Shown here: one piece after another, positions 9,680 through 61,529 of the stretch | Numbering within the stretch: the first letter of the stretch is position 1 | Layout: each line of letters opens with the position of its first letter | Assembly: GCA_964554015.1 (NCBI GenBank) | Contig: CAZKMO010000001.1 | Location: forward strand, 22,756 to 86,755 | Direction of reading: 5' to 3' | DNA length: 64,000 nt | Source: an uncultured bacterium | Lineage (GTDB): Bacteria; Zhuqueibacterota; QNDG01; CAYUAG01 | Position numbers and translations under genes: made by a program | The notes under the pieces: generated by a model | The model's database searches: none | Told to the model about the DNA's origin: nothing | The model's input: the letters and a program-made list of their open reading frames with translations, nothing else

Positions 9680-9691
9680 AAAAAGGTAACA

Positions 9692-10681: not shown

Positions 10682-10690
10682 AATTCATAT

Positions 10691-11908: not shown

Positions 11909-11910
11909 CC

Positions 11911-21500: not shown

Positions 21501-22773
21501 CCTTTCTTTAAGACACCGTACTCTTAAGACAGAAGAATATCAATCCTCCAAGCAAACCGTAAAGGGAGAAGTGGAATATAAGATTCCTGCCTCAATCTTG
21601 GATATGCTTTCCCTTAAATCCATACGTATTTACGGAGTATGGAGAAAAAGCTGGGAGTCCAGGGATAGTACTAATACTCATGCTGATCATTCCCCTAATA
21701 GATTATATGACAACCGCTATTTTCGCATTGATTGTTCTCCTGTAAATCTTATACAGATTAATGCTTATTATCGGGGAGAAAGCGTAACCATGCAGAATCT
21801 CGATAACCGGGGAAAACGTCCCTTAACCCGGCAGCAGAAATGGTTTTTGGATGCAACTGTAGACAGGATTCAGGGAATTAACCTGAATGTACGTTACCAG
21901 AGTGAAATTGCTCAAAGGTTTGATTTATCACCTTCCGGGATTTCTTCTATAACCCTGCAACGACTACTGCAGTCAAACATTCGTTTTTTCCCCGGTCAGT
22001 GGGTACGATTCTTATCGCCTTTTACCTTTGAAATAAATCTTAATCCCGGCTGGAAAGGAACCCTGGAAGATAATACCCGGAAATTGAAGTGGAAGGAAAA
22101 ATTATGGCAGCTAACCGAATCAAAAGCCCTGAATGTAGGGGAAGATAATATGCTGTATCAATTACGGGGTGAGTGGAGACCCACTGCTTCTCTCTTTCTA
22201 TATACCGGACTGGAATTTTTTCGTTTTGACTCCAAACATCTGGATAGCAGATCTCAAACCAGAGGTAAACGGTTTCATAATAAAGTTGAATACCAACCAT
22301 CCCCTCAATCCCTGATCACTCTGCAATATTTTTACACTGAAGATAATATCGATCTCTATAAACATACCATCAGATACAATCCTATGCTCTGGGTGGAGCA
22401 TCGATGGAACGACAAACTGCAGACTAAAATCAATCTGGCCTATCTGCAAGAAGATAAAACCTTAGTAAGCATAAAAGAAATTACATCCAATTTTTCTCCC
22501 TTGGTAGGAATAACTTATCGATGGCGTCATTCTGAAACCGGTAAAATAAGAGCAGAAGTCCGCAATGACCTTTCTTCCTCATTTTATCAGCATTCATCTT
22601 CGAATTTGAATACAGCTGTTAACAGTTATACCAATACCCTGGCTTTGGATATTTACCCGACTTCAATCTTTATTCTCCGTTTCCGTTTATCCACCATATT
22701 CAGGGATAAACTGGATTCTGTAAAAGATAATCTGTCCAATTCCCTGGAATTAAGATTGACAGCACAATTTTAA
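18577..22773 (+). CDS. Very large secreted protein of about 1400 aa. It has N-terminal two-component-regulator-propeller (Reg_prop-like) repeats and a long C-terminal region with outer-membrane beta-barrel character ending ...RLTAQF. The start codon is uncertain.
   Basis: The ORF track calls GTG 19081. The same frame is open back to the stop at 18574-18576. That upstream stretch encodes a signal peptide (RNIWLSWLFVFLSLFPAFSQ) and further propeller repeats (YVWVATDRGAARFD, LWIGTPRGLYQY). There is no ATG/GTG/TTG in that frame upstream of 19081. Confidence 0.5.
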   Translation: MIKSLSKVICTRNIWLSWLFVFLSLFPAFSQVKKYWPKRRFPHLVVKDKLWIGTPRGLYQYHAEDDTWTIYGKHNGLPSNRIQLIQYDGEYLWVVTPEGTAFGDIRLNKWLVYNQENGLPSNKVNSIAFQEDYVWVATDRGAARFDKLIQEWEHFTLEDGLPDSVVTDVIVEEDLVYLSTYKGLVEYDINFEKWRVYPILHDSISSVIKFIYPTTDYLWLFTDQGPLRFNKQLHSILSFPENDQLKFSNIQDLVVDNEKFWSATTAGVFIYDPANILWRPFQEQIHLPDSSVKAMAFSQGKRWFVTETGIAVFDEQIKSWDYYGKAHGLSSQQYDAIATFRSQVFLINNSTIDYYIPQENRWRVYPLKDVSILSQRKTPYVSLDQEKGSFVQITPKAQLGISGSRWNSRFNFSHSFDLETDQSQSENDIAHRRDVKSQLTLPKGQTINGFYDDTDFNQTMYGIRYKGLKKDLVQEVNWGDIRYEQGKTHLIPSIGIFGVSGRLETGSKTEQYGRSLVSAKVWSGEKTTGQDTEFFTGNMHEARISLRDVDYIPYTYFCWDTTDTGIDLDKNSEQIFVDDGNEQTNTRNTLIDFTIGGIKGDFDKLLPFEDYVVDHDKGILMLTRPLSPSAVMILKAKSAGLPWERVLKTTEKSSYTMLNRYFVDGMKIIPSSFSLQITDSTGKDLPIFQFGLDGNRDGRVDPEWIDTREGILSFPSPQPFPQAVYQIENPLSSFLMHIQFETEISIFMLKHNRLIRGTETVTVDGDILTAGQDYIIDYTSGSLLILKEGIVAEDSEIKVKYEFYQNSSEKFHLGGIGFGPSDNILMEVNGFAYDEENSGSDSGSMQGINFFGEFKGKIKGLDFKLTPELAQSLGRESKGSSFHIRTDISSQRIRLYSEYEKYDSEFKNLFPRKFQLGEMEKRLAAGVTVLPLDFLDITGQWSQQQTPKTISGKHNKEENLSGKLLLNKKQLPALSLSLRHRTLKTEEYQSSKQTVKGEVEYKIPASILDMLSLKSIRIYGVWRKSWESRDSTNTHADHSPNRLYDNRYFRIDCSPVNLIQINAYYRGESVTMQNLDNRGKRPLTRQQKWFLDATVDRIQGINLNVRYQSEIAQRFDLSPSGISSITLQRLLQSNIRFFPGQWVRFLSPFTFEINLNPGWKGTLEDNTRKLKWKEKLWQLTESKALNVGEDNMLYQLRGEWRPTASLFLYTGLEFFRFDSKHLDSRSQTRGKRFHNKVEYQPSPQSLITLQYFYTEDNIDLYKHTIRYNPMLWVEHRWNDKLQTKINLAYLQEDKTLVSIKEITSNFSPLVGITYRWRHSETGKIRAEVRNDLSSSFYQHSSSNLNTAVNSYTNTLALDIYPTSIFILRFRLSTIFRDKLDSVKDNLSNSLELRLTAQF

Positions 22774-33761: not shown

Positions 33762-34502
33762 TCAAAATTTTTTTACCAGCCAAAGTTGCACTCCACCCCC
33801 AGGAACAGGAGAAAGTCCCATCTTTAGCGAAGTTTTATCCTGATCAGCTTTAATGGCAACCCGCATGGCATCAATACCACTCACTATATGATTCACCACT
33901 ACAATACCAAGTAACAGAACAGAGTTAGAAAAAGCTTGGTCACTGGACATCCTGATTTTTTCATATTTCAACCGATTACTTTTATTGTCCCATTTCCAAG
34001 AGTACTCCCGGTTCTCGGGATATAATGCATCCAGATTTCTCTGCTGCAATTTGGTTTGATTATATGTCTGTATATCATCATAATGTTCAATATTAACAAA
34101 ATAATCATGGTCCTTACCTGCAGGATTTATATGAGCATGAGCGATGGCAAAATTTTTATAATCGTTCTCTCTCCAATTGCCGTATACTCTAAAACAACAA
34201 TAGGAAGTCCATAAGGCGATCTCAGCTCCCAGAAATATTTTTGCCATTTTAGGGGAACCGGCATAGTACTCTCCCCATCCTGGAATTAATAAGGACAAAA
34301 GAAATGCCTTGCCCCGGGAAGGAGAGCTGACATCAGATTGCTGATCAGGTTTATCCTTGGAGACAAGAAATGATTTATTAAATTCCTGCTTGCCGGATAC
34401 TCCATCTTGTTTCTTTTTAATTCCACCCCATCCATGGGAGGAAAGTAACATAGAAATAATTAAAACTGATATCAACAATATATTATTTTTGCCCACCTTC
34501 AT
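33762..34502 (-). CDS. DUF5683-like secreted/membrane-associated protein.
   Basis: There is a signal peptide. The motif LSLLIPGWGEYYAGSPKMAKIFLGAEIALW is shared with the downstream paralog. Confidence 0.4.
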   Translation of the reverse strand: MKVGKNNILLISVLIISMLLSSHGWGGIKKKQDGVSGKQEFNKSFLVSKDKPDQQSDVSSPSRGKAFLLSLLIPGWGEYYAGSPKMAKIFLGAEIALWTSYCCFRVYGNWRENDYKNFAIAHAHINPAGKDHDYFVNIEHYDDIQTYNQTKLQQRNLDALYPENREYSWKWDNKSNRLKYEKIRMSSDQAFSNSVLLLGIVVVNHIVSGIDAMRVAIKADQDKTSLKMGLSPVPGGGVQLWLVKKF

Positions 34503-34548
34503 TTTTCTCTCTTTTTTATTTATATCTCAAACTAATATTTAACAATGC

Positions 34549-34730
34549 CGTCATCCTGAGGAACGCTGGTGACGAAGGATATCACGCTACATTGGATTCA
34601 GTAAAGGAGTATGTTTAGCTGGAAATGAATGTAATTTCTTTAAAGAATCGCACTTTATCGGGTAAAAATAGTCATACCTTTTCATTCATTGGCGTGAGAT
34701 TCTTCGCTCCTTTCAGTCGTTCAGAATGAC
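34549..34730. repeat. Imperfect ~39-bp inverted repeat (GTCAT[C/T]CTGA...GCGAAG[G/A]AT[A/C]TCACGC) flanking about 104 bp. It is a member of a small dispersed repeat family.
   Basis: The left arm is 34549-34587. The right arm is 34692-34730, in reverse complement. A related motif GTCCTGAGCGAAAGCGAAGGGAT occurs at 54214-54236. Confidence 0.6.
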
Positions 34731-34826
34731 AATACAGAGTTACTGTTTTGAAAAATTGTAAACTTTTTCCAGGACGACACATTTTTTTATCTTTTGTCTT
34801 TTTTATTTTTTCTTTTGTCTTTATTT

Positions 34827-35615
34827 TTACCACCTGGTAATAAGTGACAGAAAAGGAACCTCACATCCATGCACCTTTCGGTAACTCATCCGCACCTGCG
34901 ATTCGATCTTTCTGTTCACTCCCCGAATGGTCCAGGCTGCATCCAAGGCTGAAAAAACATGGTTGGCCAGGGTAAGCATGGCACAGGTTGATGCTTTGGC
35001 AAATTCATTATTACTGTTAAGCCGCATGGTCATGTATCTGTCCCTGTGTTCAGTAACAGCCGTGCCACCTTCCTCGTAATCATCCCATCCTGCTTTAAAC
35101 TGATCGTATTTTCCTATCATTTCATAGTACTGCTGGGTTTTAGTTGCCGGCAGCGTGTGAGTGGTGTCACCAAACTCCGGATGCTGCTGCATCCAGTCTT
35201 TCCATCTTATCTCATTCCAATTAGTATCAGCAAAAGCCTCATATTCTTCTTCAAGGTCAAATCCTTTTCCCCGAAAATCAACGTATTTCCACCAGAGCAG
35301 AATTTCAAACCCTAAAAATACAGCCCCTTTAATTTTAGATCCGGCATAGATTTCTCCGGTTCCCGGAACAGCGCCGGAAAGCAGTATGCCTATGGCCGGT
35401 ATCTTTCTTTTAGGGGCAGGATTAGCACTATTCTTGTCAAAAATTATATGATCATTCCCTGCATACTGGTATTTATTTAGCATAAAATATCTCAACTCTG
35501 CATTATGATTAAGGGAATTATTCTTATCTTTTGCCTTTAAAACTTGAGGCATGAATATAGCTTGAAAAAATACTATCATACTCATTATGACAATTTTATG
35601 TTTAAATTTTTCCAT
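34827..35615 (-). CDS. DUF5683-like protein. It is a paralog of 33762..34502.
   Basis: There is a signal peptide. The motif LLSGAVPGTGEIYAGSKIKGAVFLGFEILLW is shared with the paralog. Both share a C-terminal VxxHxxSAxDA motif. Confidence 0.4.
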   Translation of the reverse strand: MEKFKHKIVIMSMIVFFQAIFMPQVLKAKDKNNSLNHNAELRYFMLNKYQYAGNDHIIFDKNSANPAPKRKIPAIGILLSGAVPGTGEIYAGSKIKGAVFLGFEILLWWKYVDFRGKGFDLEEEYEAFADTNWNEIRWKDWMQQHPEFGDTTHTLPATKTQQYYEMIGKYDQFKAGWDDYEEGGTAVTEHRDRYMTMRLNSNNEFAKASTCAMLTLANHVFSALDAAWTIRGVNRKIESQVRMSYRKVHGCEVPFLSLITRW

Positions 35616-35626
35616 ATGATTCCTCT

Positions 35627-38575
35627 CTAATCAAGAAAATCAAATAAAACTCCCAGATAAAACCGCCATTCTTCACCATAGGAATTTCCCCGCAGCCGAT
35701 ACTTGTCAAAACCATACACACTGTCAAAGGTTAGGCATAAGGGAAAATTATAAAAAGAGAACAGCTGCAAACGAAGTTGTAACCCTGCATCCCTTTTAAT
35801 TTGGTCAAAATCAAAATCTTTACTCCATATATTCCCTGCCTGGGCATATACTGACAGATAAAGTTTATGCAGATGGAGAAACCATAATCTGGTATTGAGA
35901 TGGGTTGAAATGGGGAAACGGTAGGCTGCATCAAATTGCAATAATTTTCTTCCCTGCAGGCTGTAAAAGGAATAGCCTTTTAATCCTTCCAGGCCTCCAC
36001 CGAAAAAATAGTAAAAATCATCAACTGGTCTGTCAATGTATCCGGCCTTGAGTCTGAGGGCAGAAGAATGCTGTTTGAATAAACCAGGCAGATATTCAAA
36101 CCAGTCCATCTCCAAGGAATAAAATTTATAGGTTTTATATTTTTCCACCAGGGTTCCATAATCTTTATGAACTTTAAAATCATCCAGAAATTTATTATAT
36201 GACCATTTACCCCAGATACTTATATTCCGCCCGCCATCAGGAGCAATACTTGATGAAGCGCTGGGTTTTAGGGCCCGATAATCCCATTTGACCTGTAGAT
36301 CATTGCCCAGATGATAATTATAGGAAAAATCAATCTTCTGATTCTGTTCTTCAAAAGACATGCCAGCGTCAGATCGGGAAAAAATATAGGCAGTACGCAG
36401 CTTATGATCATCACCAAGAGGCCAATCCGCCCCCAGGTCTACTTCTATCAGATTAAAACTATAGTCTCTTTCTTCTATACTGGTATGACGGCGCTGATTG
36501 TAAGCTTCCAAAAACAAAGTGGGATATAATTCCCGATCATTGAAAATACAAAACAGATCAGTATCAAACTGAGTATTCAAAGCAGCACCACCAAAAATAA
36601 AAATCTTGTCCAAAAAATCACTTCCGGTAAAATAGGCGCCCAATTTTATTTTCCCGGGATAATCTGACATTATTCTGGGGAAAAAAGATAACTTGGACAA
36701 CATTTTTTTATAAGGCCTGCTTTCATAGTCAGGGATTTTGGTATCATCATAGCTGCTGATGGCAATCTTTTGAGAATCCCGCCACTCTCTGATCTTCTGA
36801 TAGGGTGATACATATCTTTGTTTAGGGATAGATGAGTTACTGATCGAATCCATATAGGCAATTTTATATCCATCCGCAGTAAACAGAGAAAAGGTCAGTT
36901 TTTCATTCCTGTCTACAGCCGGCATAAAAGCTCCTCCCGGCACTGCGGTGAGTACTGTCGAATTGCCGGTTTCCATATTCAGGCAGTAAACATTAAAAAT
37001 TCCGGAACTGTCACTGGAAAAGTATAATTTCTTTCCCTCCGGACCAGGAAAGGCATCCCGGTTATCCCACTTGTTTTTAATCAAATAGGTAAATTCTGAA
37101 CCGGAAGAATCCACACAAGCAATAGCCCGGGATTCTTTACCCTCATCAAAGCTGAAAACAATTCGCCCGTCCGGCATCCAGCGGGGAGCTAAGATCTGTT
37201 CTCCCTTACTGAACTCTGTAATCATTTTCAGTGTATTCTGTTGTAAATCATAGATGCAGAGATTACAAGTACCGTCCTTTTGCACCACACACACAATTTT
37301 TCTATACTGGGAAGACACATCAGGCTCTTGCGTACGGGCACTGTGCGTTAAACGCTTCTCCTTTTTGTTTTTCAGATCAAAGATGTATAGATCATAGAAA
37401 TGAGAACCCTGCACGGTCGGGTCAGTTCTTTTTGCGTATACCAAGCTGGTATCAGAGAGCCAGGAAACCGAGGTTGTCACTCCGGATTGAACCATCTTTT
37501 TTTCCCCGGTTTGTAAGTTCCACACCCATAAATTCAATTGAGAAGAGTAATCGTTACCGCAGCTGGAAATATAGGCGATATGTTTACTGTCCGGAGACAG
37601 TACCGGATAGTAATTGCCGCTTCCTTTTGGTTCCAAAATTTTATAATTTTTATTTTTACTGAAGTTATTATTAAAATAGCCGGTAAGCAGCCAGTCTTTC
37701 CATTCAGCATACAGTTCTTTACTGCTCTTGCCTAAAACCTGTTTGGTTGCCTGGGAAAAACTCAAATCAAGAGGTTTACTCATAGAATGAATCAGCTGAT
37801 TAAGTTTTTCTTCACCATAGGTAAAGGCCAGGTAAAGGGTAAATCCGTACCCTTGGTTGTACACTCTTTCATTTCCCAGTCCCTTTTTGCCGAATACTCC
37901 CATCTGCTTAATTCCCAGCAGTCTATCTTCCAGACAAGCGGTTCTCAATACCATATCCCGGTGAGTATCCCAGGTATCATAATCCAAGCCTGCTCGCTGG
38001 AATTGAGCAACTCCCTCTGCAAACCACATGGGAATCACTGTGCCTGCCAGGGGAAATGATACCAGTCTGTTAGGATATCCGTGAATCACATCCGGTCTTT
38101 TTTCTTTTTCGTACCCCAGCCACTGAATATATAGAGCCGGGATCTGTCTGGGTAATTTTCTGGCTGCTCCCAGGGAAATCATATGAGAAAATTCATGGGT
38201 AATAACGTTCCGCAGCCAGTTATGACTGCCTCTGAGAAAAAATTCCAGGGAAGGGGCCCAGAGTTCAACTTTATTATTATAGTAAAAAGCAGCACCATTG
38301 GAAACATCGCCATGATCTCGGACAATAAAATGCATTTTCCCGTCGGGTTTATAGGAATACAGGGAAGTTATGGGATCAAAAATTTGTTCGGCAATCTTTG
38401 CGGTTAAGCGGGCAGTACGTTCTGTTCCCTGATGAAAATGTATGTAAAAATGATCTGTTTCTATCGTACGCCAGTTCAGCTCCGGGTGGTTGAATGTCTC
38501 CATCTGCCCCCATAAAGGAACTGAGATAAGTATAAGTAAGAAAGGAATTAATATATTTTTCAATTGCATATTCAA
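35627..38575 (-). CDS. Secreted zinc-metallopeptidase-like protein with HEXXH, TolB-type PD40 beta-propeller repeats and a C-terminal beta-rich (barrel-like) domain.
   Basis: There is a signal peptide. The motif HEFSHMISLGAARK is present. PD40-like repeats (YYPVLSPDSKHIAYIS, WMPDGRIVFSF) are present. Length is 982 aa. Confidence 0.5.
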   Translation of the reverse strand: MNMQLKNILIPFLLILISVPLWGQMETFNHPELNWRTIETDHFYIHFHQGTERTARLTAKIAEQIFDPITSLYSYKPDGKMHFIVRDHGDVSNGAAFYYNNKVELWAPSLEFFLRGSHNWLRNVITHEFSHMISLGAARKLPRQIPALYIQWLGYEKEKRPDVIHGYPNRLVSFPLAGTVIPMWFAEGVAQFQRAGLDYDTWDTHRDMVLRTACLEDRLLGIKQMGVFGKKGLGNERVYNQGYGFTLYLAFTYGEEKLNQLIHSMSKPLDLSFSQATKQVLGKSSKELYAEWKDWLLTGYFNNNFSKNKNYKILEPKGSGNYYPVLSPDSKHIAYISSCGNDYSSQLNLWVWNLQTGEKKMVQSGVTTSVSWLSDTSLVYAKRTDPTVQGSHFYDLYIFDLKNKKEKRLTHSARTQEPDVSSQYRKIVCVVQKDGTCNLCIYDLQQNTLKMITEFSKGEQILAPRWMPDGRIVFSFDEGKESRAIACVDSSGSEFTYLIKNKWDNRDAFPGPEGKKLYFSSDSSGIFNVYCLNMETGNSTVLTAVPGGAFMPAVDRNEKLTFSLFTADGYKIAYMDSISNSSIPKQRYVSPYQKIREWRDSQKIAISSYDDTKIPDYESRPYKKMLSKLSFFPRIMSDYPGKIKLGAYFTGSDFLDKIFIFGGAALNTQFDTDLFCIFNDRELYPTLFLEAYNQRRHTSIEERDYSFNLIEVDLGADWPLGDDHKLRTAYIFSRSDAGMSFEEQNQKIDFSYNYHLGNDLQVKWDYRALKPSASSSIAPDGGRNISIWGKWSYNKFLDDFKVHKDYGTLVEKYKTYKFYSLEMDWFEYLPGLFKQHSSALRLKAGYIDRPVDDFYYFFGGGLEGLKGYSFYSLQGRKLLQFDAAYRFPISTHLNTRLWFLHLHKLYLSVYAQAGNIWSKDFDFDQIKRDAGLQLRLQLFSFYNFPLCLTFDSVYGFDKYRLRGNSYGEEWRFYLGVLFDFLD

Positions 38576-38694
38576 TTTTTTCTGTCTTTAGAAGATAAAA
38601 ATTTGAAGATAAGACCCTATTCCCATCCTCTCAAACCAATTAATTTTTAATCTTCTGTTTTATCCTTTATCTTTTATCTTTTGTATTTTTTCTT

Positions 38695-41600
38695 CTATTT
38701 AATGACTGCAATCTTACAAATGACTGCTTTCTCTCTGGAACCGGCATCTGCCTTAACCCGGCAGAAATAAACCCCGCTTTCCTTTCCGGAAATATCCCAC
38801 CTAATTTCATTTTCCGTGTTACCCATGCCGGGGCCGGAAAAGGAATCCACTAATTCCCCCGCCAGATCATATATTTCTATGGATACCTTAGCCTGCTTTT
38901 CCAGACGGTACCTGATATAAGTAAAATTCCCTTTTGCCGGGTTGGGATAGTTATACACCAGATTATCAGGCATAAGATCGGACTTCTCCGGAACAGCAAT
39001 TGGTTTTACTCTGCTCATCCCGGAATTGGCTGCATCGTAAAGATAACTTCCCCAAGGAATCAATTCGGCTGAATAACTGCCGGGAAGATCCCATACAAAC
39101 AACTCTCCCCTTTCCGAAACCGCTGCCATCTCCAGGTCGCCATCCTTATCCAGATCCAACAAAGTAGGTGAACCCGGAATTGATCCGCCCGTGGTCAGGG
39201 GAAAACCGGTTACCATTTCTCCGGAATAATTCCAGGCTTCAATATTCCCTTCAGAGTTGGCAACCACAATATCAATCTTATCATCTCCATTAACATCTCC
39301 CAGCAGGCAGGAAGACAACTCCGCTGTACGGGGAAAATAGGGAAAAGGTGAATAGTCGACATAACTGGCATTGGCGTTAAATCCGTATATCTTATCCTGC
39401 GCTGTAATTACAATCTCACTTATTCCATCCCCGTCAATATCTCCGGCAGCAGGGAAAGAGAGAGAGGAACCGGTTATTTTATCTTCTGTAGTATAATAAT
39501 CATCCTCAAATCTGTCATAAATCAGCAGATTTCCGCTCCGGGAAACAACTGCAGTCAAAGGATAATCTTGTTCTCCCAGATAAGCCGATATGGGATTATG
39601 GAGTTCTCCAGCTTCTGAAAACTGTTTTTCTTTTATCAGAGAACCGGCGTTATCTATAAATATTAGATTAGAGGAAACAGTAACCGCAATAGCCCCCTCC
39701 TCATCAGCCTGACAGATACCGGTGATAGCTTCCTCTCCTGCCTGGTAATCCCATTTAAGAGATCCGGTGCTGGTGAGACTGAAAACTTTCCCTTCTCTGG
39801 TACCAAATATCAAACAGGTATCCGAGGGTGATGTAATTATGTGCAGATTGGTGGAAATCGAAGTTTGATCATTATTCCAGGAAAATACCTTGGTTGCTGC
39901 CAGGCCCCCGCCATTTCCCCCTTCCATACCCCAGCCGGACACGGTTCCGCTCTTATCAGCTATTATAATTTCATCCCGAAAATCTCCATTGATATCAAAC
40001 ACCAGGGGAGAAATGGATATTGTTTCCGAACATTTGATTAATAAAGGAACCTTATAAAAAATAGTATCATGGGTAACCGTCACCCGAAAACCGGTAGAAT
40101 CGGAGGAAAAGGGAGTACCATCCTGGTTCCAGGCAAATATTGCGTGGTCTGAAGCAATGATCAGTTCCCGATTTCCTTCTCCGTTCAGGTCTCCTGTCAG
40201 TACCGGAGAAACCCAGGTGGAGCAGCTCTGAAAATAAGAGGGGAAACCTGGCTGCAGCATATCGGTGGTAAGGGAAAAACTCATCACTGTATCTCTGGGG
40301 GAAAAATCAGTGATCACAATATGGGAATTACCACCCTGGTTTGATCGGGAGTTAGGGAAACTGAAGGGAGTAAACATCACCTTAGTTGTATCATTTACTT
40401 CTTGATTTATCTCATTGTCCTGATACCAGGCATCCTGTAAAACACCGTATTCTGAACCATAACCATAAGAAGTATAACTATATAATTCACCGATATCCTG
40501 AGCCCCATCTGCCTCCTCCAGGTCAACCCCCCGGTGATTCTTATCCGCATTGATCCTATTTTCTTCTATGGTTCTGCGGATCACCTCTTCATCAATATGC
40601 CAGATCAATATACCTGAGCCGGGAAGGCCGTAATCATACTCTTCCACTGAAGTTATAACTCCATACCTTTCCATCTCAATAGTTCCATCGGATCGGAATA
40701 TTACTTGTCCGCCGTTAGCGGTTCTTCCGGTAGTTATACTGTCTCCGTTGGTATCATACTGGCGGTTTTCAATCAGAAAATATTCATGATCATTAATGGG
40801 CACTTTATAAATTTTATTGGATTCAGTTGCTTTGGAGCAGGCTATTTTTATATTATTCTGGTGAGTAATTGTTATTGGTTTTTCCCAACCCATTAATACT
40901 TTGCTGAAAGCACAGGGCTCGGCTGGTATCAATCCTATATAATTTCCGGATCCCTGATCCATTAATCCCCACATACCAATACCGGAATGACCGGTCTCCG
41001 TATTCCAGAGAGCAGGCAGACCCAGCTGGAATCCATACATAATACTCATAGTACCCAAAAGACCTATTTCATAAAAATATTGACTGTCTTCCTGATTTTG
41101 GGTTTCAGGAAGGATAATTCCTTCTTGTACCCGGAAACTGCTGTTCTCAACTTCAATACCCGGAAAATTCGGATCTCCTGGGGCAAGATATCTGCGTAAT
41201 TTATCCAGATCTAAAAAGGCGGAAGAAATATCATGAGGTGTGGGATCATAATCAAAAGCAAAATCATTTCCTACTCCGGCATGAAAAATAATATAGGAAT
41301 CATAATGGGAGAACTCAGCACCTGCTGCATCAGCAGCATGGATTGCATCACCAAAAAGTTCAACCAATCCTCTATCAACTCCGGTATCACTATCTTCTGA
41401 GCTATAATAGGACATGGCATGATTAAGTTTCAGTATTTCCGGAAATACTGTACCACTTAAAATCAGCTTTCCTCCGGAAACCGCTTTATAGTAGGAACTC
41501 AGGGCTGTAAGTTGATTTTTAAAATAAGATTGGTTATGAGGTGACGGATCAATGACAGTATCTTCAACGGTGAGCATAAATGTACCATCTCCAGTAGTAA

Positions 41601-41859
41601 GGGAATCATCTTTTTTAATAAATTCAACCATAAAGGCCAAAATATTAACTGTATCACTATTATTAATTGTAAAATTTCTATTCTTTTCCGAGAAAAAGAC
41701 TTTTTCTCCCTTCCAGGAAAGAAAAGATGATTTCACTAAATTTTTTCTGGAAATAGAGCATTTTTTAAAATCGTATTTTATATTATTAACCGAAGCAGAA
41801 ACGATGCTTGAGAATATAATGAAAATATTGATAAACAATTTACAGATACTACTTTTCAT
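38695..41859 (-). CDS. Large FG-GAP/VCBS-repeat surface protein with a T9SS C-terminal sorting domain.
   Basis: There is a signal peptide. Repeated FDINGDFRDEIII, GDIDGDGISEIVI, GDVNGDDKIDIVV and LDLDKDGDLEM (FG-GAP calcium loops) are present. The CTD YNYPNPAKGNFTYIRY...GVYFCRV is present. Confidence 0.6.
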   Translation of the reverse strand: MKSSICKLFINIFIIFSSIVSASVNNIKYDFKKCSISRKNLVKSSFLSWKGEKVFFSEKNRNFTINNSDTVNILAFMVEFIKKDDSLTTGDGTFMLTVEDTVIDPSPHNQSYFKNQLTALSSYYKAVSGGKLILSGTVFPEILKLNHAMSYYSSEDSDTGVDRGLVELFGDAIHAADAAGAEFSHYDSYIIFHAGVGNDFAFDYDPTPHDISSAFLDLDKLRRYLAPGDPNFPGIEVENSSFRVQEGIILPETQNQEDSQYFYEIGLLGTMSIMYGFQLGLPALWNTETGHSGIGMWGLMDQGSGNYIGLIPAEPCAFSKVLMGWEKPITITHQNNIKIACSKATESNKIYKVPINDHEYFLIENRQYDTNGDSITTGRTANGGQVIFRSDGTIEMERYGVITSVEEYDYGLPGSGILIWHIDEEVIRRTIEENRINADKNHRGVDLEEADGAQDIGELYSYTSYGYGSEYGVLQDAWYQDNEINQEVNDTTKVMFTPFSFPNSRSNQGGNSHIVITDFSPRDTVMSFSLTTDMLQPGFPSYFQSCSTWVSPVLTGDLNGEGNRELIIASDHAIFAWNQDGTPFSSDSTGFRVTVTHDTIFYKVPLLIKCSETISISPLVFDINGDFRDEIIIADKSGTVSGWGMEGGNGGGLAATKVFSWNNDQTSISTNLHIITSPSDTCLIFGTREGKVFSLTSTGSLKWDYQAGEEAITGICQADEEGAIAVTVSSNLIFIDNAGSLIKEKQFSEAGELHNPISAYLGEQDYPLTAVVSRSGNLLIYDRFEDDYYTTEDKITGSSLSFPAAGDIDGDGISEIVITAQDKIYGFNANASYVDYSPFPYFPRTAELSSCLLGDVNGDDKIDIVVANSEGNIEAWNYSGEMVTGFPLTTGGSIPGSPTLLDLDKDGDLEMAAVSERGELFVWDLPGSYSAELIPWGSYLYDAANSGMSRVKPIAVPEKSDLMPDNLVYNYPNPAKGNFTYIRYRLEKQAKVSIEIYDLAGELVDSFSGPGMGNTENEIRWDISGKESGVYFCRVKADAGSREKAVICKIAVIK

Positions 41860-42015
41860 AATTACTATTCCTAGAAAAAGTTACACCTTGCCATCTTAAT
41901 GCATACTGAATAAACTGCCCGCCAAAAACACAAAATTTTTCTATCTAAATTATACCTATAATTTAAATTATTTGATGTATTCTGTATTTTTGGCAGGCAA
42001 ATATAAACTCGGGTT

Positions 42016-43074
42016 CTAAAATCCGAGACTAAGAGAAAATCTCATGGTATCAGAGAGGGGATGTCCTTTTTCAGCAGCCACATAAGCAAAATCAAACCTG
42101 TAGGTATTATATTGAAGACCGGCACCAAAGGTAGGAAACTTTACTTTGCCAATTTCATCATAATAGTAGCCGGTTCTTAAAAATATCATATCACTATAAA
42201 CATATTCTAATCCCATACAGGTAATAAGCTCTTGCAATTGTTCATCTATGGGTTTATCTGTCCAACTGGTAAAAATGGCTTTATAAAAAGCATCCGATTC
42301 ATTCCCTTTCTTGACTACCATAAGTTTATTAGTATCAAGAGTTAAAGTTAGTCTATTATATTTTTTATCCAAGACTTTGTAGGCAAATCCCAATTTTAAA
42401 TTTGTCGGCAAGGGATCTGCTTGGGCAGCATCAACATAAGCTATTTTGGGGCCCATATTGGCAAGATTTGCTCCAAATGATAATCCTTTGATAAATCCAA
42501 TTTTCCAGAGAACTCCCACATCAAAAGCAAAGGCATTACCAGAACCACTGCCCTTCTCGGTTCCGACATCAACCCAATCAGGAGCAAGCATACTTTGGAT
42601 GTAACGTACATTAACACCCAATCCAACATTATCGGTTACCTTGGTTGCATACCCCAGGGTTATAGCAAAATCATAACTTTGGAATCTGCCTCTTTCTTCC
42701 CCGGTTTCACCTGTCCATACCTGCTCTCCCATATTCAGATAGGTAACATTAGCAGCGATAGTCCCTCCCAAGCTCTCCACATAATGCCGGTAAGAAGCAA
42801 ATTCATAAAACATATCATCAACTAATCCCGGAAGCCATTTACAATGCATAAAAATAATCTCTTTACCTTTCAGAAAGGCAAGTCCACCCGGATTCCAATA
42901 TATGGCTGTTGCATCATCGGCAAGGGCTACAAATGATTCTCCCATACCCGAAGCCCGGGCTCCTGGTGAAATTAATAGAAACAGCACCGCAGCTTCACTT
43001 ACAGCAAATACATTAGATGCCATAATCAAGCTAAATACGAAAACCAATAAAATTATTGTTAATTTTTTCATCAA
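42016..43074 (-). CDS. FadL/OMPP1-family outer-membrane beta-barrel protein. It may be a T9SS PorV-like shuttle.
   Basis: There is a signal peptide. The N-terminal hallmark GARASGMGESFVALADDATAIYWNPGGLAF is present. It ends in aromatic ...SLGF. It is adjacent to T9SS cargo genes. Confidence 0.5.
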   Translation of the reverse strand: MMKKLTIILLVFVFSLIMASNVFAVSEAAVLFLLISPGARASGMGESFVALADDATAIYWNPGGLAFLKGKEIIFMHCKWLPGLVDDMFYEFASYRHYVESLGGTIAANVTYLNMGEQVWTGETGEERGRFQSYDFAITLGYATKVTDNVGLGVNVRYIQSMLAPDWVDVGTEKGSGSGNAFAFDVGVLWKIGFIKGLSFGANLANMGPKIAYVDAAQADPLPTNLKLGFAYKVLDKKYNRLTLTLDTNKLMVVKKGNESDAFYKAIFTSWTDKPIDEQLQELITCMGLEYVYSDMIFLRTGYYYDEIGKVKFPTFGAGLQYNTYRFDFAYVAAEKGHPLSDTMRFSLSLGF

Positions 43075-43656
43075 TAATACCTCCCTAAAATAAAAAAACC
43101 GAACTTTTCAAAAAAATATAACCCGTATCATTAGTTATATTTTTTTAGTAATCCGGTCTGATGCAATAATTCGTTGCAGGCCATGGATACAGCTTAACTA
43201 TAATAGAAAAAAATTGTTTTATCCATCAGACCTATAACGAATTCTTATACGTAAACCTCTTATCTTTATTTAAAATTTCATTTAATATATAAATTTATGA
43301 TTTCAATGTCAAGTTTTTTTTAACTCTTTTTTAGTATGAAATTAAAACCTAAATATACCTTTATAAAAAAGACTGCAAAAAAAATGCCATCATATATTAA
43401 ATCACTAAAATCCTCATTAGGTGAGATATTTCCCTGTTACCAAGCCGGCCTTTATAGCTCTGGAGCCGAATAATACAGGCATAGCAATAACTTCACACAT
43501 ATATTTTGATTCACCGTGAAAACAATCAAATAAAACTTCACCCTGGTAAATAAATTGTATACCGATAATAAAAAAATAAAAAATTATATCCATCCCACCT
43601 CCATTTACTTGAATAAATAATAAAAAATCAGTACTTTAAAAAAAATATAAAAATCT

Positions 43657-55740: not shown

Positions 55741-56388
55741 TTAATTTTTTTGCTTGCTTTCCTGTTCCGCCTTCTCTATCTGGGGTTTAAGATATTTTTC
55801 AAAACATTCGGGACAAACACCATGACTGAATTGAAGCTCGGAATGATTGGAAATATAGGTTTCAACCTGTTGCCAGTAATTTTTATCATCTCTTACTTTT
55901 TTGCAGTAGCAACATATGGGTAAAAGACCCTGTAGTATTTCTACTTTATTCAGCGCCTCTTGTAATTTTCGAACATGATGATTAAGGTTCGCCTCCAAAT
56001 TAATAACCCGTAATCCCACATTAATCCTGGCTCGCAGTTCCTTAAGATTGAAAGGTTTAGTCATGTAGTCATCCGCACCAGCATCCAAACCACTCACGAT
56101 ATTTTCTAATTCGGATAAAGATGTTAAAATAATTATATAGGTGTAATAATCACATTTCAGCTTACGAATTTTCCTGCATAATTCTATGCCGTCCATCTCA
56201 GGCATCATCCAGTCAATAATGGCAAGATGGGGCAGATCTGATTGCACCTGTGCCCAGGCTTTTCCCCCATCTTCTACCGCTGTAACCGTATATCCCCACT
56301 TCTGAAGGGACGAAGTTACTAATTTTCTGGAAATAACATCATCCTCAGCTACCAATATTTTAAGGTCTTTCTTTTTGTAAAAACTCAT
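55741..56388 (-). CDS. Response regulator: a receiver domain fused to a Cys-rich C-terminal module (CCYCKK...W...HGVCPEC).
   Basis: The REC motifs [19 protein letters not shown] and K in TKPF are present. The C-terminal 60 aa carry C-x-C-x2-C...H-x2-C-x2-C. Confidence 0.6.
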   Translation of the reverse strand: MSFYKKKDLKILVAEDDVISRKLVTSSLQKWGYTVTAVEDGGKAWAQVQSDLPHLAIIDWMMPEMDGIELCRKIRKLKCDYYTYIIILTSLSELENIVSGLDAGADDYMTKPFNLKELRARINVGLRVINLEANLNHHVRKLQEALNKVEILQGLLPICCYCKKVRDDKNYWQQVETYISNHSELQFSHGVCPECFEKYLKPQIEKAEQESKQKN

Positions 56389-56771
56389 ATTAATTTCTCA
56401 ATAGTTTTGATTAATATGTCGTGACTAACGGTTTTAACTAAAAACTCATCTGCACCGCAATGCTTGGCTAGATCCCTGTCTTTATGCATATCCCGCGATG
56501 TTAATACAATAAATGGAATATTCCTATAATTCTTATCATATTTTAAAAACCTGCAAATTTTATGCCCGTCCATTTGAGGAAGCAATAAATCACAAATAAT
56601 CAGATCCGGTTTCTTTGCCTTTGCCAGATTAAACCCGGTAAGTCCGTTTTCAGCTGAAATCACCCTATACCCACTGGACTCCAGTTTTAATCGTACTATC
56701 TTTAAAAATGAAGGATTATCTTCAATAAATAATATTAATGGTTTCTGTAAGCTTTCCATCTTTTTCTCCAT
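56385..56771 (-). CDS. Single-domain response regulator (CheY-like receiver).
   Basis: The REC motifs ILFIEDN, LIICDLLLPQMDG and the K in VKT are present. The start was set at internal ATG 56771, which is an inference; the ORF track extends to 56816. Confidence 0.6.
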   Translation of the reverse strand: MEKKMESLQKPLILFIEDNPSFLKIVRLKLESSGYRVISAENGLTGFNLAKAKKPDLIICDLLLPQMDGHKICRFLKYDKNYRNIPFIVLTSRDMHKDRDLAKHCGADEFLVKTVSHDILIKTIEKLI

Positions 56772-56787
56772 TTTAAGCAATAAGTAC

Positions 56788-58260
56788 TTAATCCAATATT
56801 CCTTCCACTTTGGCAACTAATTTTTCATTATCTATTGGTTTTTCCATTACAGGTAATGTGCTTTCTCCATTCAAATCATTTAGTCTTTTATAATCAATCT
56901 CCACCCCACTAATTATAATAGCCGGAATAGAAATTTTTTCTTTTTTCATTTGTTCCAGAATTTCATAACCGTCAATTTCAGGGAGCATTAAATCCAGAAT
57001 GACCAGAGATGGATTTTGAGATTTAATTTTCTCAAGCGCACTCTTCCCATCATAAGCAGCTATGAATTTGTAGCCTTTATATTTCAGTAATTTCCCTACT
57101 ATATCCACAATTTTCTCAGAATCATCAACTACCAATACGGAAGGAAACTCTGCTTTCTCCAAAGTGAAATAAAAGGTTGTTCCTTTTCCCAATTCTGAAT
57201 CTACAGTAATGTTTCCTCCATGCTTTTCCACTAAAGCTTTGGAAATCGCCAGTCCCAGACCAGTTCCCTTGTATCCAGAGCCTTGGGTTCTGTCAAACTG
57301 TTCAAACCGTGAAAATAATTTCGGTACATTCTCTTTGGCTATTCCTGTCCCGGTATCAGACACCCAGCAGGTTACATATTTTTCCTGATCTTTAAAACCT
57401 AAACTTATTTCTCCTTTTAAAGTAAATCTTATACTGTTACTCACTAAATTGGTAAAAATCTGAATAATCCTATCTCGGTCAGCATATATATTCAAAGAAT
57501 TATCAGGAATAGTAAGCGCAAACTTCAAACCCTTTTCCGATACTTGTTGAGTAAAATCCCTCTCTATTTTTTTTGCCACCGCACATAGATCCACTGAAGA
57601 TTTGTGAATACTCAATTTACCAGCTTCAATCTTTGCCGCATCTAAAAGATCAGTTACTAACCGATTCAGCCGGTCAATGTTTTCCAGTGAATCACTGAGT
57701 ATATCCTGCTGCTTTTCATTCAATTCTCCGATAACTCCATCCAGGCATAGAGATATACCGCCTCGCATAACAGCGATCGGTGTTCTCAGTTCATGGGTAA
57801 CGGTTGAAATAAATTCATCTTTCAAATTATCTAATTCTTTGAGACGTTCAATATGGGAATTAAGCTGATTCTCCAACCCTAAAATTCTTTGTCCCACCTC
57901 GATACGTGCCATTAATTCCTGTGTATCGAAGGGTTTACTGATATAATCATCGGCACCGGCAGACATGCCTTTTGAGAGATCTTCTTTTTGCCCCTTAGCG
58001 GTTAGAAAAATAATATAAGTATATTTATTATCATTTTTATTACGGACTTTCTTACACACTTCAACTCCATCCATCTCCGGCATCATCCAGTCTAAAATAA
58101 TCAACTGAGGTGCATTTTTTTTCTTAAGTATCTCCCATGCCTCCAATCCGTTAACTGCATCAGTTACCAAAAATCCCCGCTTCTCTAAAACTCTCCGTAA
58201 TATTTTTCTTGAAATAGGATCATCTTCAGCAATTAATATTTTTGTTTTATTTTCAGACAT
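56788..58260 (-). CDS. Hybrid histidine kinase: REC-HisKA-HATPase_c-REC.
   Basis: The N-terminal REC (ILIAEDDP...[11 protein letters not shown]) is present. The H-box is THELRTPI. The G-boxes are [10 protein letters not shown]. The C-terminal REC is VLVVDDS...[11 protein letters not shown]. Confidence 0.75.
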
Positions 58261-60784: not shown

Positions 60785-61529
60785 AATAATCTTTTACATG
60801 AATCATCTCTTCTTTTAATCTTTTAAATACTTCTAAGGCAGCATCCATTCGCGATTCTTTTCCCAGATTCTCAAGCTCAACTACAAGTTCATAAGCTCGC
60901 TCTGCTCCAAAACTAGCTACAGCACCTTTAAAACTATGAGCTCTCTTCTGAAGCTGACGGGAATCCTTCTTTTGGATCATTTCTCCTATTCCTGAAAGTT
61001 GTTTGGGAAATAAGGTAAGAAAATCCTCAATTAACTCCTGAAAAAGTTCCTTGTCACCTTCTACCGTTTCCATTGCCTTAGATAGATTAATACAAAAATC
61101 ATCATTCGTCCAACTGCTACTTTCACGTACTACTTTACTTATGGTCTGCCAAAGTTCTTCAACTTCAATTGGCTTTGAAATAAAAGCATCCATTCCTGCT
61201 TCTATACATTTATCCATATCCTCTTTCATAGCTGAAGCAGTTAAAGCAATTATGGGAATATGTTCTCCGGTAGTTTTTTCTTGTTTTCTAATCTCTTGGG
61301 TGGTTTCCAAACCATCCATAAGCGGCATTTTAGCATCCATTAAAATTAGATCAAAATATTCACGTTCCAAGCCACTCAATACTTCTTTTCCATTTTCAAC
61401 CGAGGTTACCCTAAATCCTTTTTTCTTTAATATGGTCTCTATTACTATTTTATTTATGGAATTATCTTCTGCTAATAAAATTTTTAATGATTTTTCCGGA
61501 AAAGGCATTACATTATTATTTGATTTCAT
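60750..61529 (-). CDS. Response regulator receiver + HPt phosphotransfer protein.
   Basis: The REC motifs [11 protein letters not shown] and [13 protein letters not shown] are present. The HPt motif is [11 protein letters not shown]. Confidence 0.7.

What the first reader, a model, noticed from the sequence alone, without database searches (positions are those of the whole stretch)
35627..43074. Surface-protein island: HEXXH-propeller protein, FG-GAP T9SS cargo and a FadL/PorV-like barrel in one minus-strand block
Three consecutive genes encode the following: (i) a signal-peptide protein with HEFSH and PD40 propeller repeats plus a C-terminal beta-rich region; (ii) a 1054-aa FG-GAP/VCBS repeat protein ending in a T9SS CTD; (iii) a 352-aa FadL-family barrel with the GMG...DD..A..NPAGL hallmark. 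The barrel's size and neighbourhood resemble the PorV cargo shuttle of T9SS. A cargo-shuttle pairing next to a protease would be a compact secretion/processing module.
Basis: partly seen in the sequence, partly recalled or inferred. Interest (0 to 1): 0.5.

Follow-up and report, generated by a model that had tools for sequence, protein, structure and literature searches.

The report
PorV-linked five-gene outer-membrane cluster
The three genes are real and belong to a strictly conserved five-gene outer-membrane cluster that links the type IX secretion protein PorV to a dead protease-like surface protein, a membrane-barrel-anchored zinc protease and two small proteins, and no paper I could find describes this link.

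Summary
All three ORFs exist at the stated coordinates with the stated motifs.

- **Barrel (42016..43074).** It is a PorV-family protein, not a FadL transporter. It scores 325 bits on NCBIfam PorV_fam and 17.5 bits on Pfam Toluene_X. Its only PDB sequence match is Flavobacterium PorV.
- **1054-aa protein.** It belongs to NCBIfam NF052323, "T9SS-dependent M6-like inactivated metalloprotease". None of 59 homologues has HExxH.

The conserved unit is five genes (33762..43074, minus strand). Two paralogous DUF5683-like small proteins follow the three. The order is identical in all 48 complete loci from KSB1, Calditrichota and Electryoneota genomes.

The PorV, M6i and Omp85-peptidase trio recurs in four of ten far more distant lineages. 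In two of these it lies directly behind the PorU sortase gene.

My best reading is an accessory outer-membrane sub-complex of the T9SS attachment stage. This rests on synteny and homology only. No T9SS core gene lies in the window. Several distant relatives of the Omp85-peptidase stand alone.

The parts
42016..43074 (-). porV homologue (PorV/PorQ-family FadL-like outer-membrane barrel). Signal peptide present; probable start is the ATG at 43071, behind a GGGAGG ribosome-binding site.
   Evidence: NCBIfam PorV_fam 325 bits (cutoff 90). PorV equivalog 249.1 (cutoff 250), PorQ 84, PorV2 65. Pfam PorV 109.5 bits against Toluene_X 17.5. The only PDB sequence hit, even at E<=10, is F. johnsoniae PorV 6h3i_F, 2e-33, over the full length. 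It is the most conserved of the five genes (median 55% identity).
38695..41859 (-). T9SS type A CTD protein: signal peptide, inactivated M6-like metalloprotease domain, FG-GAP beta-propeller, C-terminal sorting domain ('M6i').
   Evidence: NF052323 at 642.8 bits (cutoff 600). TIGR03296 M6 domain 73 bits. Por_Secre_tail hit. FG-GAP_3 and FG-GAP hits. 2439 homologues at E<=1e-10, named 'M6 family metalloprotease-like' or 'T9SS type A sorting domain'.
40267..41691 (-). M6-like pseudo-protease domain of M6i (residues 57-531).
   Evidence: Best stretch of NF052323. None of 59 homologues has HExxH.
41029..41043 (-). Degenerate zinc site of M6i: IMYGF (residues 273-277), where active M6 peptidases have HExxH, followed by the conserved QLGLPALW.
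   Evidence: Alignment of 57 homologues. The placement against the M6 motif HEfGHdLGLPD rests on my own knowledge of M6/InhA. One homologue (L077) keeps HQFGH.
38719..38949 (-). T9SS type A C-terminal sorting domain of M6i (residues 971-1047).
   Evidence: PF18962 46.7 bits, TIGR04183 39.8 bits.
35627..38575 (-). Protein A, the 'WD40-Omp85' peptidase: signal peptide, MA-clan zinc peptidase, TolB-like propeller, Omp85 16-strand barrel, no POTRA domain. Probable start is the ATG at 38569.
37661..38503 (-). N-terminal zinc peptidase domain of A (residues ~25-305).
   Evidence: Peptidase_MA_2 matches 15 of 16 family members (best E 3e-10). With this domain as query, 269 clusters at 50% identity reach E<=1e-30. 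Most of the 150 best hits are proteins of ~950-1270 aa with the domain at the N-terminus. All 104 of them longer than 900 aa have HExxH.
38183..38197 (-). HEFSH zinc-binding and catalytic motif (residues 127-131). The third ligand candidate, E187 in WFAEG, lies at 38015..38017.
   Evidence: H127, E128, H131 and E187 are invariant in 75 of 75 aligned homologues.
36848..37648 (-). TolB-like beta-propeller of A (residues ~310-576).
   Evidence: TIGR02800 78 bits. Profile search against the PDB: TolB at 2e-22. Foldseek: TolB at 1e-10.
35630..36721 (-). Omp85-type 16-stranded barrel of A (residues ~619-982).
35960..35998 (-). Loop 6 of the barrel, with G-G-L-x-G-[LMI]-[KR]-G-Y (residues 860-868 and following). 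This is the counterpart of the Omp85 signature (V/I/L)RG(F/Y).
   Evidence: [KR]866 75/75, G867 75/75, Y868 74/75. In the model's strand list the loop lies between strands 11 and 12 by my count. The motif is described as L779RGY782 in F. johnsoniae BamA in PMC12611786.
34827..35615 (-). g262: small signal-peptide protein, DUF5683-like, paralogue of g246. It ends in an amphipathic strand with a terminal Trp.
   Evidence: It falls in one BLAST cluster with g246, two copies per locus in 58 loci. The terminal residue is W in 56 of 59 sequences. No Pfam or NCBIfam hit. It starts 11 bp after the stop codon of A.
33762..34502 (-). g246: small signal-peptide protein, DUF5683-like. It has a long helical hairpin and a C-terminal beta-hairpin ending in Phe.

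Best explanation
Window 33762..43074 (minus strand) encodes a conserved five-gene envelope cluster tied to the attachment/sorting stage of type IX secretion. The order is porV, M6i, Omp85-anchored zinc peptidase (A), then two DUF5683-like small proteins.

Proposed working, with each step marked as shown or inferred:
1. All five products are exported by Sec. Shown: each has an N-terminal signal peptide.
2. PorV sits in the outer membrane as the CTD-binding barrel. Homology is shown; binding is inferred.
3. M6i is carried out by the T9SS through its type A CTD. It probably stays docked on PorV as a non-catalytic binding or scaffold subunit, as PorU does on PorV and PorZ does on PorQ in Porphyromonas. 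Inferred, from its fixed single-copy position beside porV over very deep divergence, its dead active site and its propeller.
4. Protein A is embedded in the outer membrane by an Omp85 barrel. The barrel and the L6 motif are shown. By standard Omp85 topology its propeller and intact HExxH...E peptidase should face the periplasm. There it would trim or quality-control T9SS-related polypeptides, with the propeller gating access. Inferred.
5. The two small paralogues dock on one of the barrels through their C-terminal aromatic beta-hairpin. This is speculative.
For: **Component identities.** These rest.

**Catalytic state.** HExxH and E187 are invariant in 75 of 75 homologues of A. None of 59 M6i homologues has HExxH.

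**Synteny in close relatives.** tblastn of the five proteins against 80 loci finds the same order and strand wherever the contig allows. The loci come from 355 matching GTDB species and include KSB1, Calditrichota and Ca. Electryoneota. In 48 loci all five genes are complete and none deviates in order. The flanks are unrelated housekeeping genes: efp, accBC and gcvH/P in distant loci; hsp15, nth and ugd in the window.

**Synteny in distant lineages (27-33% identity of A).**
- L084: PorU (924.8 bits), PorV (297.7), M6i-like (439.8), A-like, then, after one intervening gene, a g262-like gene.
- L090: PorU (1067 bits), PorV (293.6), M6i (1271.6), A-like, DUF5683-like.
- L081 (Ca. Raymondbacteria) and L083: a PorV-family barrel carrying a PorZ-like insertion, then M6i-like, then A-like.

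**T9SS-type sorting in this organism.** The window holds three CTD proteins.

**Precedent.** PorU and PorZ are themselves T9SS cargo anchored on PorV and PorQ (PMC12365241).
Against: - There is no experimental or structural evidence of any contact between the five proteins.
- The A family is wider than the cluster. In six of ten distant lineages sampled the A-like gene has no PorV or M6i neighbour (L085-L089, L091).
- The 2014 survey lists members in Proteobacteria, which to my knowledge lack a T9SS. The basic job of A is therefore probably general.
- A periplasm-facing peptidase cannot reach surface-exposed, PorV-bound cargo.
- No T9SS core gene (porK/L/M/N, sov, porU) is in the window. The rest of the genome could not be searched.
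- The PorV equivalog score is 0.9 bit under NCBI's cutoff.
Confidence: 0.5

Rival explanations
1. Two unrelated units lie side by side. PorV and M6i are an ordinary shuttle and cargo pair. A and the DUF5683-like proteins form a general outer-membrane or periplasmic protein quality-control unit (a peptide-degrading protease tethered by an Omp85 barrel) with no specific role in type IX secretion. Co-location reflects only co-expression of envelope genes.
For: A-like genes stand alone in six of ten distant lineages sampled; one lies about 4 kb from tamB and a POTRA-Omp85 gene. WD40-Omp85 members were reported in Anaeromyxobacter, Sorangium, Geobacter and Vibrio (PMC4104836 Table S3). NCBI names M6i merely 'T9SS-dependent', that is, cargo.
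Against: Chance or regulatory co-location rarely keeps one order and strand from 78% down to 26% identity of A. Yet the order holds in KSB1, Calditrichota, Electryoneota, Raymondbacteria and three unnamed lineages. The trio attaches to porU-porV in two lineages. Ordinary T9SS cargo varies between species, whereas M6i is fixed. A and g262 are 11 bp apart, and in L084 and L090 the A-like gene abuts or overlaps the M6i-like gene by a few bases.
Confidence: 0.25
2. The module is a BAM-like outer-membrane machine. A (Omp85 barrel) pairs with the FadL-like PorV barrel as BamA pairs with BamG in Bacteroidota. M6i, held on PorV, forms an extracellular canopy like BamH/BamM. The small proteins plug or regulate the barrel seam like BamP. 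The machine would assemble or service large T9SS outer-membrane components.
Against: This is analogy only. A lacks POTRA domains and carries an intact peptidase, which no BAM subunit does. The barrel is PorV, not BamG: the PDB search, which should include the BAM entries 9n2d and 9hj3 seen in the fold searches, returned only PorV. Nothing shows a contact.
Confidence: 0.12
3. A exports its own N-terminal peptidase and propeller to the cell surface, in a type Vd/PlpD-like manner. There it cleaves the CTD of PorV-bound cargo, replacing the PorU sortase.
For: A is the only catalytically competent peptidase in the window's cluster. No porU lies next to porV in the window or in the 80 close loci. 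PlpD sets a precedent for an Omp85 barrel that exports its own N-terminal enzyme domain, and Heinz & Lithgow left the topology of enzyme-bearing Omp85 proteins open when discussing the metallo-Omp85 class.
Against: In L084 and L090 a full PorU sortase is encoded directly upstream of the same trio, so A is not a substitute there. The default Omp85 topology puts N-terminal domains in the periplasm. Exporting a folded propeller of about 270 residues through a 16-strand barrel is unprecedented.
Confidence: 0.08

Closest known systems
T9SS attachment complex PorU-PorV-PorZ-PorQ (Porphyromonas gingivalis) and the porU-porV gene pair
   Same: There is a PorV-family barrel encoded beside a large CTD-bearing protein built from a peptidase-like domain and a propeller. 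In two distant lineages the same trio follows porU-porV directly. PorU and PorZ are likewise CTD proteins anchored on PorV and PorQ (PMC12365241).
   Different: The window has no C25-type sortase and no PorZ or PorQ. M6i is an M6-like fold with a dead zinc site, not a C25 cysteine peptidase. The cluster adds an Omp85-barrel zinc peptidase and DUF5683-like proteins, neither of which is a described T9SS component.
'WD40-Omp85' (WD40-like) subfamily of the Omp85/TpsB superfamily (Heinz & Lithgow 2014, PMC4104836)
   Same: The architecture is the same: an Omp85 barrel with no POTRA domain, a TolB-like propeller and an aminopeptidase-like N-terminus. Table S3 of that paper lists BamA, TolB and M1/M9 peptidase template hits for members. 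I take H1XQ58 to be from Caldithrix abyssi, from its accession prefix only.
   Different: That survey assigned no function beyond 'reminiscent of a BamA-BamB fusion' in the section I read, and my term searches of the paper found no mention of a link to PorV or type IX secretion. Here the subclade is locked in synteny with porV and M6i.
NCBIfam NF052323, T9SS-dependent M6-like inactivated metalloprotease
   Same: The 1054-aa protein passes the curated cutoff (642.8 against 600) over the same ~1040-aa architecture, with a CTD and no HExxH.
   Different: The family name treats it as cargo. The conserved neighbourhood suggests a machinery-associated role.
Bacteroidota BAM complex (BamA-BamG-BamH...; PMC12611786, PMC12578637)
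   Same: An Omp85 barrel occurs together with a FadL-like barrel that holds a surface-exposed protein, plus a small periplasmic partner.
   Different: PorV is not BamG, A is not BamA (no POTRA, and it has a peptidase), and the surface protein is a T9SS CTD protein, not a lipoprotein. The resemblance is architectural only.
FadL/TodX hydrophobic-compound transporters
   Same: PorV shares the FadL-like fold according to the literature (PMC12578637), and there is a weak N-terminal motif match.
   Different: Toluene_X scores only 17.5 bits (cutoff 29.7) against 325 bits for PorV_fam. It is not a member.

Membership tests
PorV (T9SS outer-membrane shuttle; PorV/PorQ family) | Matches the curated PorV/PorQ family model above its cutoff, and better than FadL models. 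| tested here: met
   NF033709 325 bits (cutoff 90). Pfam PorV 109.5 bits (cutoff 27). Toluene_X 17.5 bits (cutoff 29.7).
PorV (T9SS outer-membrane shuttle; PorV/PorQ family) | Orthology to PorV proper rather than to PorQ or PorV2 (equivalog model). | tested here: inconclusive
   NF033710 249.1 bits against a cutoff of 250. PorQ 84.4 (cutoff 220). PorV2 64.6 (cutoff 325). PorV is clearly the best match but falls 0.9 bit short. The only PDB hit is F. johnsoniae PorV, 2e-33, over the full length.
PorV (T9SS outer-membrane shuttle; PorV/PorQ family) | Genome encodes the T9SS core (SprA/Sov, PorK/L/M/N, PorU), and PorV binds cargo CTDs. | not testable with these tools
   No core gene in the 64-kb window. 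Three CTD proteins are present in the window. PorU is adjacent to PorV in the related clusters L084 and L090.
NF052323 T9SS-dependent M6-like inactivated metalloprotease | Full-length match above the curated cutoff. | tested here: met
   642.8 bits against a cutoff of 600.
NF052323 T9SS-dependent M6-like inactivated metalloprotease | M6-like fold with the HExxH zinc site lost. | tested here: met
   No HExxH in the window protein or in 59 of 59 homologues. The site reads IMYGF-QLGLP. TIGR03296 M6 domain 73.4 bits.
NF052323 T9SS-dependent M6-like inactivated metalloprotease | C-terminal type A sorting domain. | tested here: met
   PF18962 46.7 bits and TIGR04183 39.8 bits at residues 971-1047.
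Omp85 superfamily, WD40-Omp85 subfamily | C-terminal 16-stranded Omp85 barrel. | tested here: met
Omp85 superfamily, WD40-Omp85 subfamily | Loop 6 signature (V/I/L)RG(F/Y). | tested here: met
   [LMI]-[KR]-G-Y at residues 865-868. [KR] 75/75, G 75/75, Y 74/75. By my count of the model's strand list it lies in the long loop between strands 11 and 12.
Omp85 superfamily, WD40-Omp85 subfamily | TolB-like propeller in place of POTRA, with an aminopeptidase-like N-terminus. | tested here: met
   TolB matches. Peptidase_MA_2 in 15 of 16 members. No POTRA hit.
MA-clan zinc metallopeptidase (gluzincin-type), active | HExxH plus a downstream Glu ligand, conserved. | tested here: met
   H127, E128, H131 and E187 invariant in 75 of 75. 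The Pfam Peptidase_MA_2 score of the window protein is 30.3, below the cutoff of 32.4. Activity itself was not tested.
T9SS attachment complex (PorU/PorV/PorZ/PorQ) | C25-type sortase PorU and propeller protein PorZ encoded with, or binding, PorV and PorQ. | tested here: not met
   No C25 peptidase or PorZ in the window cluster. M6i matches PorU and PorZ models only through its CTD (20-30 bits). The cluster therefore resembles the complex but is not filed as a member of it.
FadL/TodX transporter | Match to Toluene_X / OMPP1 above cutoff. | tested here: not met
   17.5 bits against a cutoff of 29.7, over residues 48-73 only.
DUF5683 (Pfam PF18935) | Match above the gathering score. | tested here: not met
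   g246 scores 20.9 bits against 26.7. 31 of 32 homologues match weakly (best E 3.7e-5). g262 has no hit. I treat both as distant relatives only.

The most novel reading that the evidence does not exclude
M6i, the WD40-Omp85 zinc peptidase and the DUF5683-like proteins are unrecognised structural subunits of the type IX secretion attachment/sorting complex in many FCB lineages outside the studied Bacteroidia and Flavobacteriia. In this reading the Omp85-family barrel is physically coupled to the FadL-like PorV barrel, in parallel to BamA-BamG. This would give the orphan WD40-Omp85 class its first function. It would also place an Omp85 protein, and a second proteolytic activity, inside a T9SS.
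Probability: 0.3. Interest if true: 0.8.

Novelty: new variant of a known kind. Interest (0 to 1): 0.6.

Why it matters
Type IX secretion has been dissected almost only in Porphyromonas and Flavobacterium. How cargo is handled at the outer membrane in the other FCB phyla is largely unknown. A gene cluster kept intact across KSB1, Calditrichota, Electryoneota, Raymondbacteria and further lineages, and joined to porU-porV in some of them, names three candidate accessory components. It also gives a concrete, testable functional context to two orphan families: the WD40-Omp85 class, known since 2014 without a function, and DUF5683-like proteins. If A and PorV do touch, this would be a second example, after BamA-BamG, of an Omp85 barrel working with a FadL-like barrel.

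Tried and rejected
- **FadL-transporter reading of the barrel.** Rejected. Toluene_X scores 17.5 bits against 325 bits for PorV_fam.
- **BamG reading of the barrel.** Rejected. The PDB sequence search at E<=10 returns only F. johnsoniae PorV.
- **The 1230-aa ORF 19081..22773 as a short SprA translocon.** Not supported. It has a 49-residue match of 31.8 bits, no PDB hit and a BBP2-like C-terminus.
- **Integral-membrane reading of the small proteins.** Kyte-Doolittle hydropathy finds only the signal peptides and one segment of g246 (residues 189-215) above 1.5. Their membrane location stays open.
- **Exact look-up of the window's protein A.** Not on record. The source organism is known only through relatives at 78% identity (unnamed MAGs).
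- **Promoter and terminator scan.** Counts are no higher than in shuffled sequence. The best sigma-70-like site, at 43312..43284, lies upstream of porV but proves nothing.
- **Rfam.** Only a tRNA matched.
- **afdb50 fold library.** Not available.
- **Home-made CTD HMM on locus flanks.** It added nothing useful.
- **Literature.** Searches on T9SS with KSB1, Caldithrix, immune inhibitor A, Omp85, Ignavibacteria and DUF5683 found no description of the cluster.
- **A as a replacement for PorU.** Down-weighted after PorU was found upstream of the same trio in L084 and L090.

Full report
**1. Observation**

The ORF listing shows three consecutive minus-strand ORFs at exactly the stated coordinates: 35627..38575 (982 aa), 38695..41859 (1054 aa) and 42016..43074 (352 aa). 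The translations contain the reported features:
- HEFSH at residues 127-131 of the first protein;
- a C-terminal sorting domain on the second;

All three begin with signal peptides. The likely true starts are the ATG codons at 38569 and 43071, the latter 8 nt behind a GGGAGG site. The GC content of the block (0.34-0.43) is like the rest of the window, so nothing marks it as an island.

**2. What the three proteins are**

*The barrel is a PorV homologue.*
- NCBIfam PorV/PorQ family: 325 bits (cutoff 90).
- PorV equivalog: 249.1 bits (cutoff 250). PorQ 84, PorV2 65.
- Pfam PorV: 109.5 bits. The FadL model Toluene_X reaches 17.5 bits, below its cutoff, and only over residues 48-73.
- Against all PDB sequences, even at E<=10, the single hit is Flavobacterium johnsoniae PorV (6h3i_F, 2e-33, full length). 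The FadL-like BamG subunit of the Bacteroidota BAM complex is not hit.

*The 1054-aa protein ('M6i') is a catalogued pseudo-protease.* It passes the curated cutoff of NCBIfam NF052323, 'T9SS-dependent M6-like inactivated metalloprotease' (642.8 against 600). It has FG-GAP repeats and a type A CTD at residues 971-1047. Where M6 peptidases carry HExxH (my own knowledge of the motif HEfGHdLGLPD), it reads IMYGF-QLGLP. None of 59 homologues has HExxH. One keeps HQFGH.

*The 982-aa protein ('A') is an Omp85-anchored zinc peptidase.* An AlphaFold2 model built on 75 homologues is confident (pLDDT 88.6, pTM 0.86). It shows three parts:
- an alpha/beta N-terminal domain;
- a beta-propeller at about residues 310-576;
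- a 16-stranded barrel at about residues 619-982.

The propeller matches TolB (TIGR02800 78 bits; PDB profile search 2e-22; Foldseek 1e-10).

The N-terminal domain is an MA-clan peptidase. Peptidase_MA_2 matches 15 of 16 members. H127, E128, H131 and E187 (in WFAEG) are invariant in 75 of 75.

A full-library HMMER search with this domain alone finds 269 clusters at 50% identity with E<=1e-30. Most of the 150 best hits are proteins of about 950-1270 aa with the domain at the N-terminus. All 104 of those longer than 900 aa have HExxH.

This architecture is not new. Heinz & Lithgow (2014) defined a 'WD40-Omp85' subfamily. Their Table S3 lists BamA, TolB and aminopeptidase template hits for its members. 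These include H1XQ58, which I take to be from Caldithrix abyssi from its accession prefix only. No function was assigned (PMC4104836).

**3. The conserved unit is five genes**

Downstream on the same strand lie g262 (34827..35615, 11 bp after A) and g246 (33762..34502). They are paralogues: they fall in one BLAST cluster, with two copies per locus in 58 loci.

A scan of one genome per GTDB species found relatives of A in 355 stretches. The 80 best loci come from KSB1, Calditrichota (including Caldithrix) and Ca. Electryoneota MAGs. tblastn of the window's proteins shows porV, M6i, A, g262, g246 in this order and on one strand wherever the contig reaches far enough. In 48 loci all five genes are complete, and none deviates in order. 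Median identity to the window is 55% for PorV, 44% for A, 42% for g246, 38% for M6i and 35% for g262.

The genes outside the five are unrelated housekeeping genes and differ between lineages:
- efp, accB, accC, gcvH and gcvPA in distant loci;
- hsp15, nth and ugd upstream, and chaN and rmlD downstream, in the window.

**4. Deeper lineages tie the cluster to type IX secretion**

I looked up the contigs of ten distant A-like representatives (27-33% identity).

Four carry the trio:
- **L084:** PorU sortase (NF033707, 924.8 bits, cutoff 420), PorV (equivalog 297.7), M6i-like (NF052323, 439.8), A-like, then, after one intervening gene, a g262-like gene.
- **L090:** PorU (1067 bits), PorV (293.6), M6i (1271.6 bits, no HExxH, CTD present), A-like (HEFTH), DUF5683-like g262 homologue.
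- **L081/L082 (Ca. Raymondbacteria) and L083:** a PorV-family barrel with a 360-450-aa insertion that matches PorZ, then M6i-like, then A-like. L081 also has a DUF5683 gene nearby.

Six do not: L085 (Fibrobacteraceae), L086, L087, L088, L089 and L091.

The window also holds three CTD proteins: M6i, 14951..16861 and the truncated 39..722. It holds no T9SS core gene.

**5. Interpretation**

*Shown:*
- the identities and domain structures of the five proteins;
- the intact catalytic site in A and the dead one in M6i;
- the invariant synteny;
- the adjacency to porU-porV in two lineages.

*Inferred:*
- that the products work together at the T9SS attachment stage;
- that M6i stays docked on PorV by its CTD, as PorU and PorZ do on PorV and PorQ (PMC12365241);
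- that A's peptidase and propeller face the periplasm, following Omp85 topology;
- that the small proteins dock through their C-terminal hairpins.

Against a strict T9SS role, the A family also occurs without PorV and M6i, and in phyla that to my knowledge lack a T9SS. Its core activity is therefore probably general and was recruited into this cluster.

Three rivals remain:
- two independent units lying side by side (0.25);
- a BAM-like machine, in which the Omp85 barrel, the FadL-like barrel and a surface canopy parallel BamA, BamG and BamH (PMC12611786, PMC12578637) (0.12);
- A as a surface-exposed substitute for PorU (0.08), weakened by the presence of PorU in L084 and L090.

**6. Novelty and verdict**

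Each component is individually catalogued: PorV, NF052323, the WD40-Omp85 class and DUF5683-like proteins. I found no paper describing their linkage.

I rate it a new variant of a known kind: a T9SS PorV/PorU neighbourhood extended by a pseudo-protease, an Omp85-anchored zinc peptidase and DUF5683-like proteins. Interest is 0.6. The finding is solid as comparative genomics and gives clear experiments, but the mechanism is inferred only.

Noticed in passing
window 8357..12318 (+): Four adjacent genes: a triple-rhodanese protein (440 aa), an EgtD-like histidine methyltransferase (Methyltransf_33, 336 bits), a class V aminotransferase/cysteine desulfurase and SufE. From my own knowledge this resembles the anaerobic ergothioneine pathway pair EanB/EanA.
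   Followed up: no
window 19081..22773 (+): A 1230-aa ORF with a 49-residue match to the T9SS translocon SprA model (31.8 bits; cutoff 200) and a BBP2 porin-like C-terminus. It has no PDB sequence hit. It is probably a large outer-membrane protein of unknown kind.
   Followed up: partly
window 39..722 (+) and 14951..16861 (+): Two further T9SS type A CTD proteins. One is a Kelch-repeat protein that may be cut by the window start. The other combines DUF362, an FlgD-like Ig domain and a CTD, and a second DUF362 gene lies at 17562..18521.
   Followed up: partly
window 38504..38506 (residue Q24 of protein A): The residue right after the predicted signal-peptide cleavage site of A is Gln in 73 of 75 homologues. 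This recalls the 'Bacteroidetes Q-rule' (N-terminal pyroglutamate), which its authors reported as not holding for the whole FCB group (PMC5837995).
   Followed up: no
L081 4344..6536 and L083 3682..6111: PorV-family barrels of 730 and 809 aa, interrupted after the first ~60 residues by a 360-450-aa insertion. The insertion matches the PorZ model (41.7 and 30.5 bits) and weakly the Reg_prop propeller. This looks like a fusion of a PorZ-like propeller into a PorV-like barrel.
   Followed up: partly
L081 20864..23564 (-): In Ca. Raymondbacteria, on the opposite strand, a second pair is found: a 314-aa gene with a PorV-like N-terminal match next to a large gene whose end matches the M6i CTD. It is possibly a PorQ/PorZ-like pair.
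   Followed up: no
L077 (OZ251221.1), M6i homologue: One M6i homologue keeps both histidines but has Gln in place of the catalytic Glu (HQFGH). It may be an intermediate in the decay of the active site.
   Followed up: no
window 55741..61529 (-) and 63192..63668 (-): A cluster of hybrid histidine kinases and response regulators, and a FliW gene. The latter suggests a flagellated organism.
   Followed up: no
window 43075..43656: A 582-bp AT-rich intergenic region separates porV from the divergent hsp15-like gene. It holds the best sigma-70-like match of the region (TTGACA-17-TATATT at 43312..43284, minus strand), but promoter-like sites are no more frequent than in shuffled sequence.
   Followed up: partly
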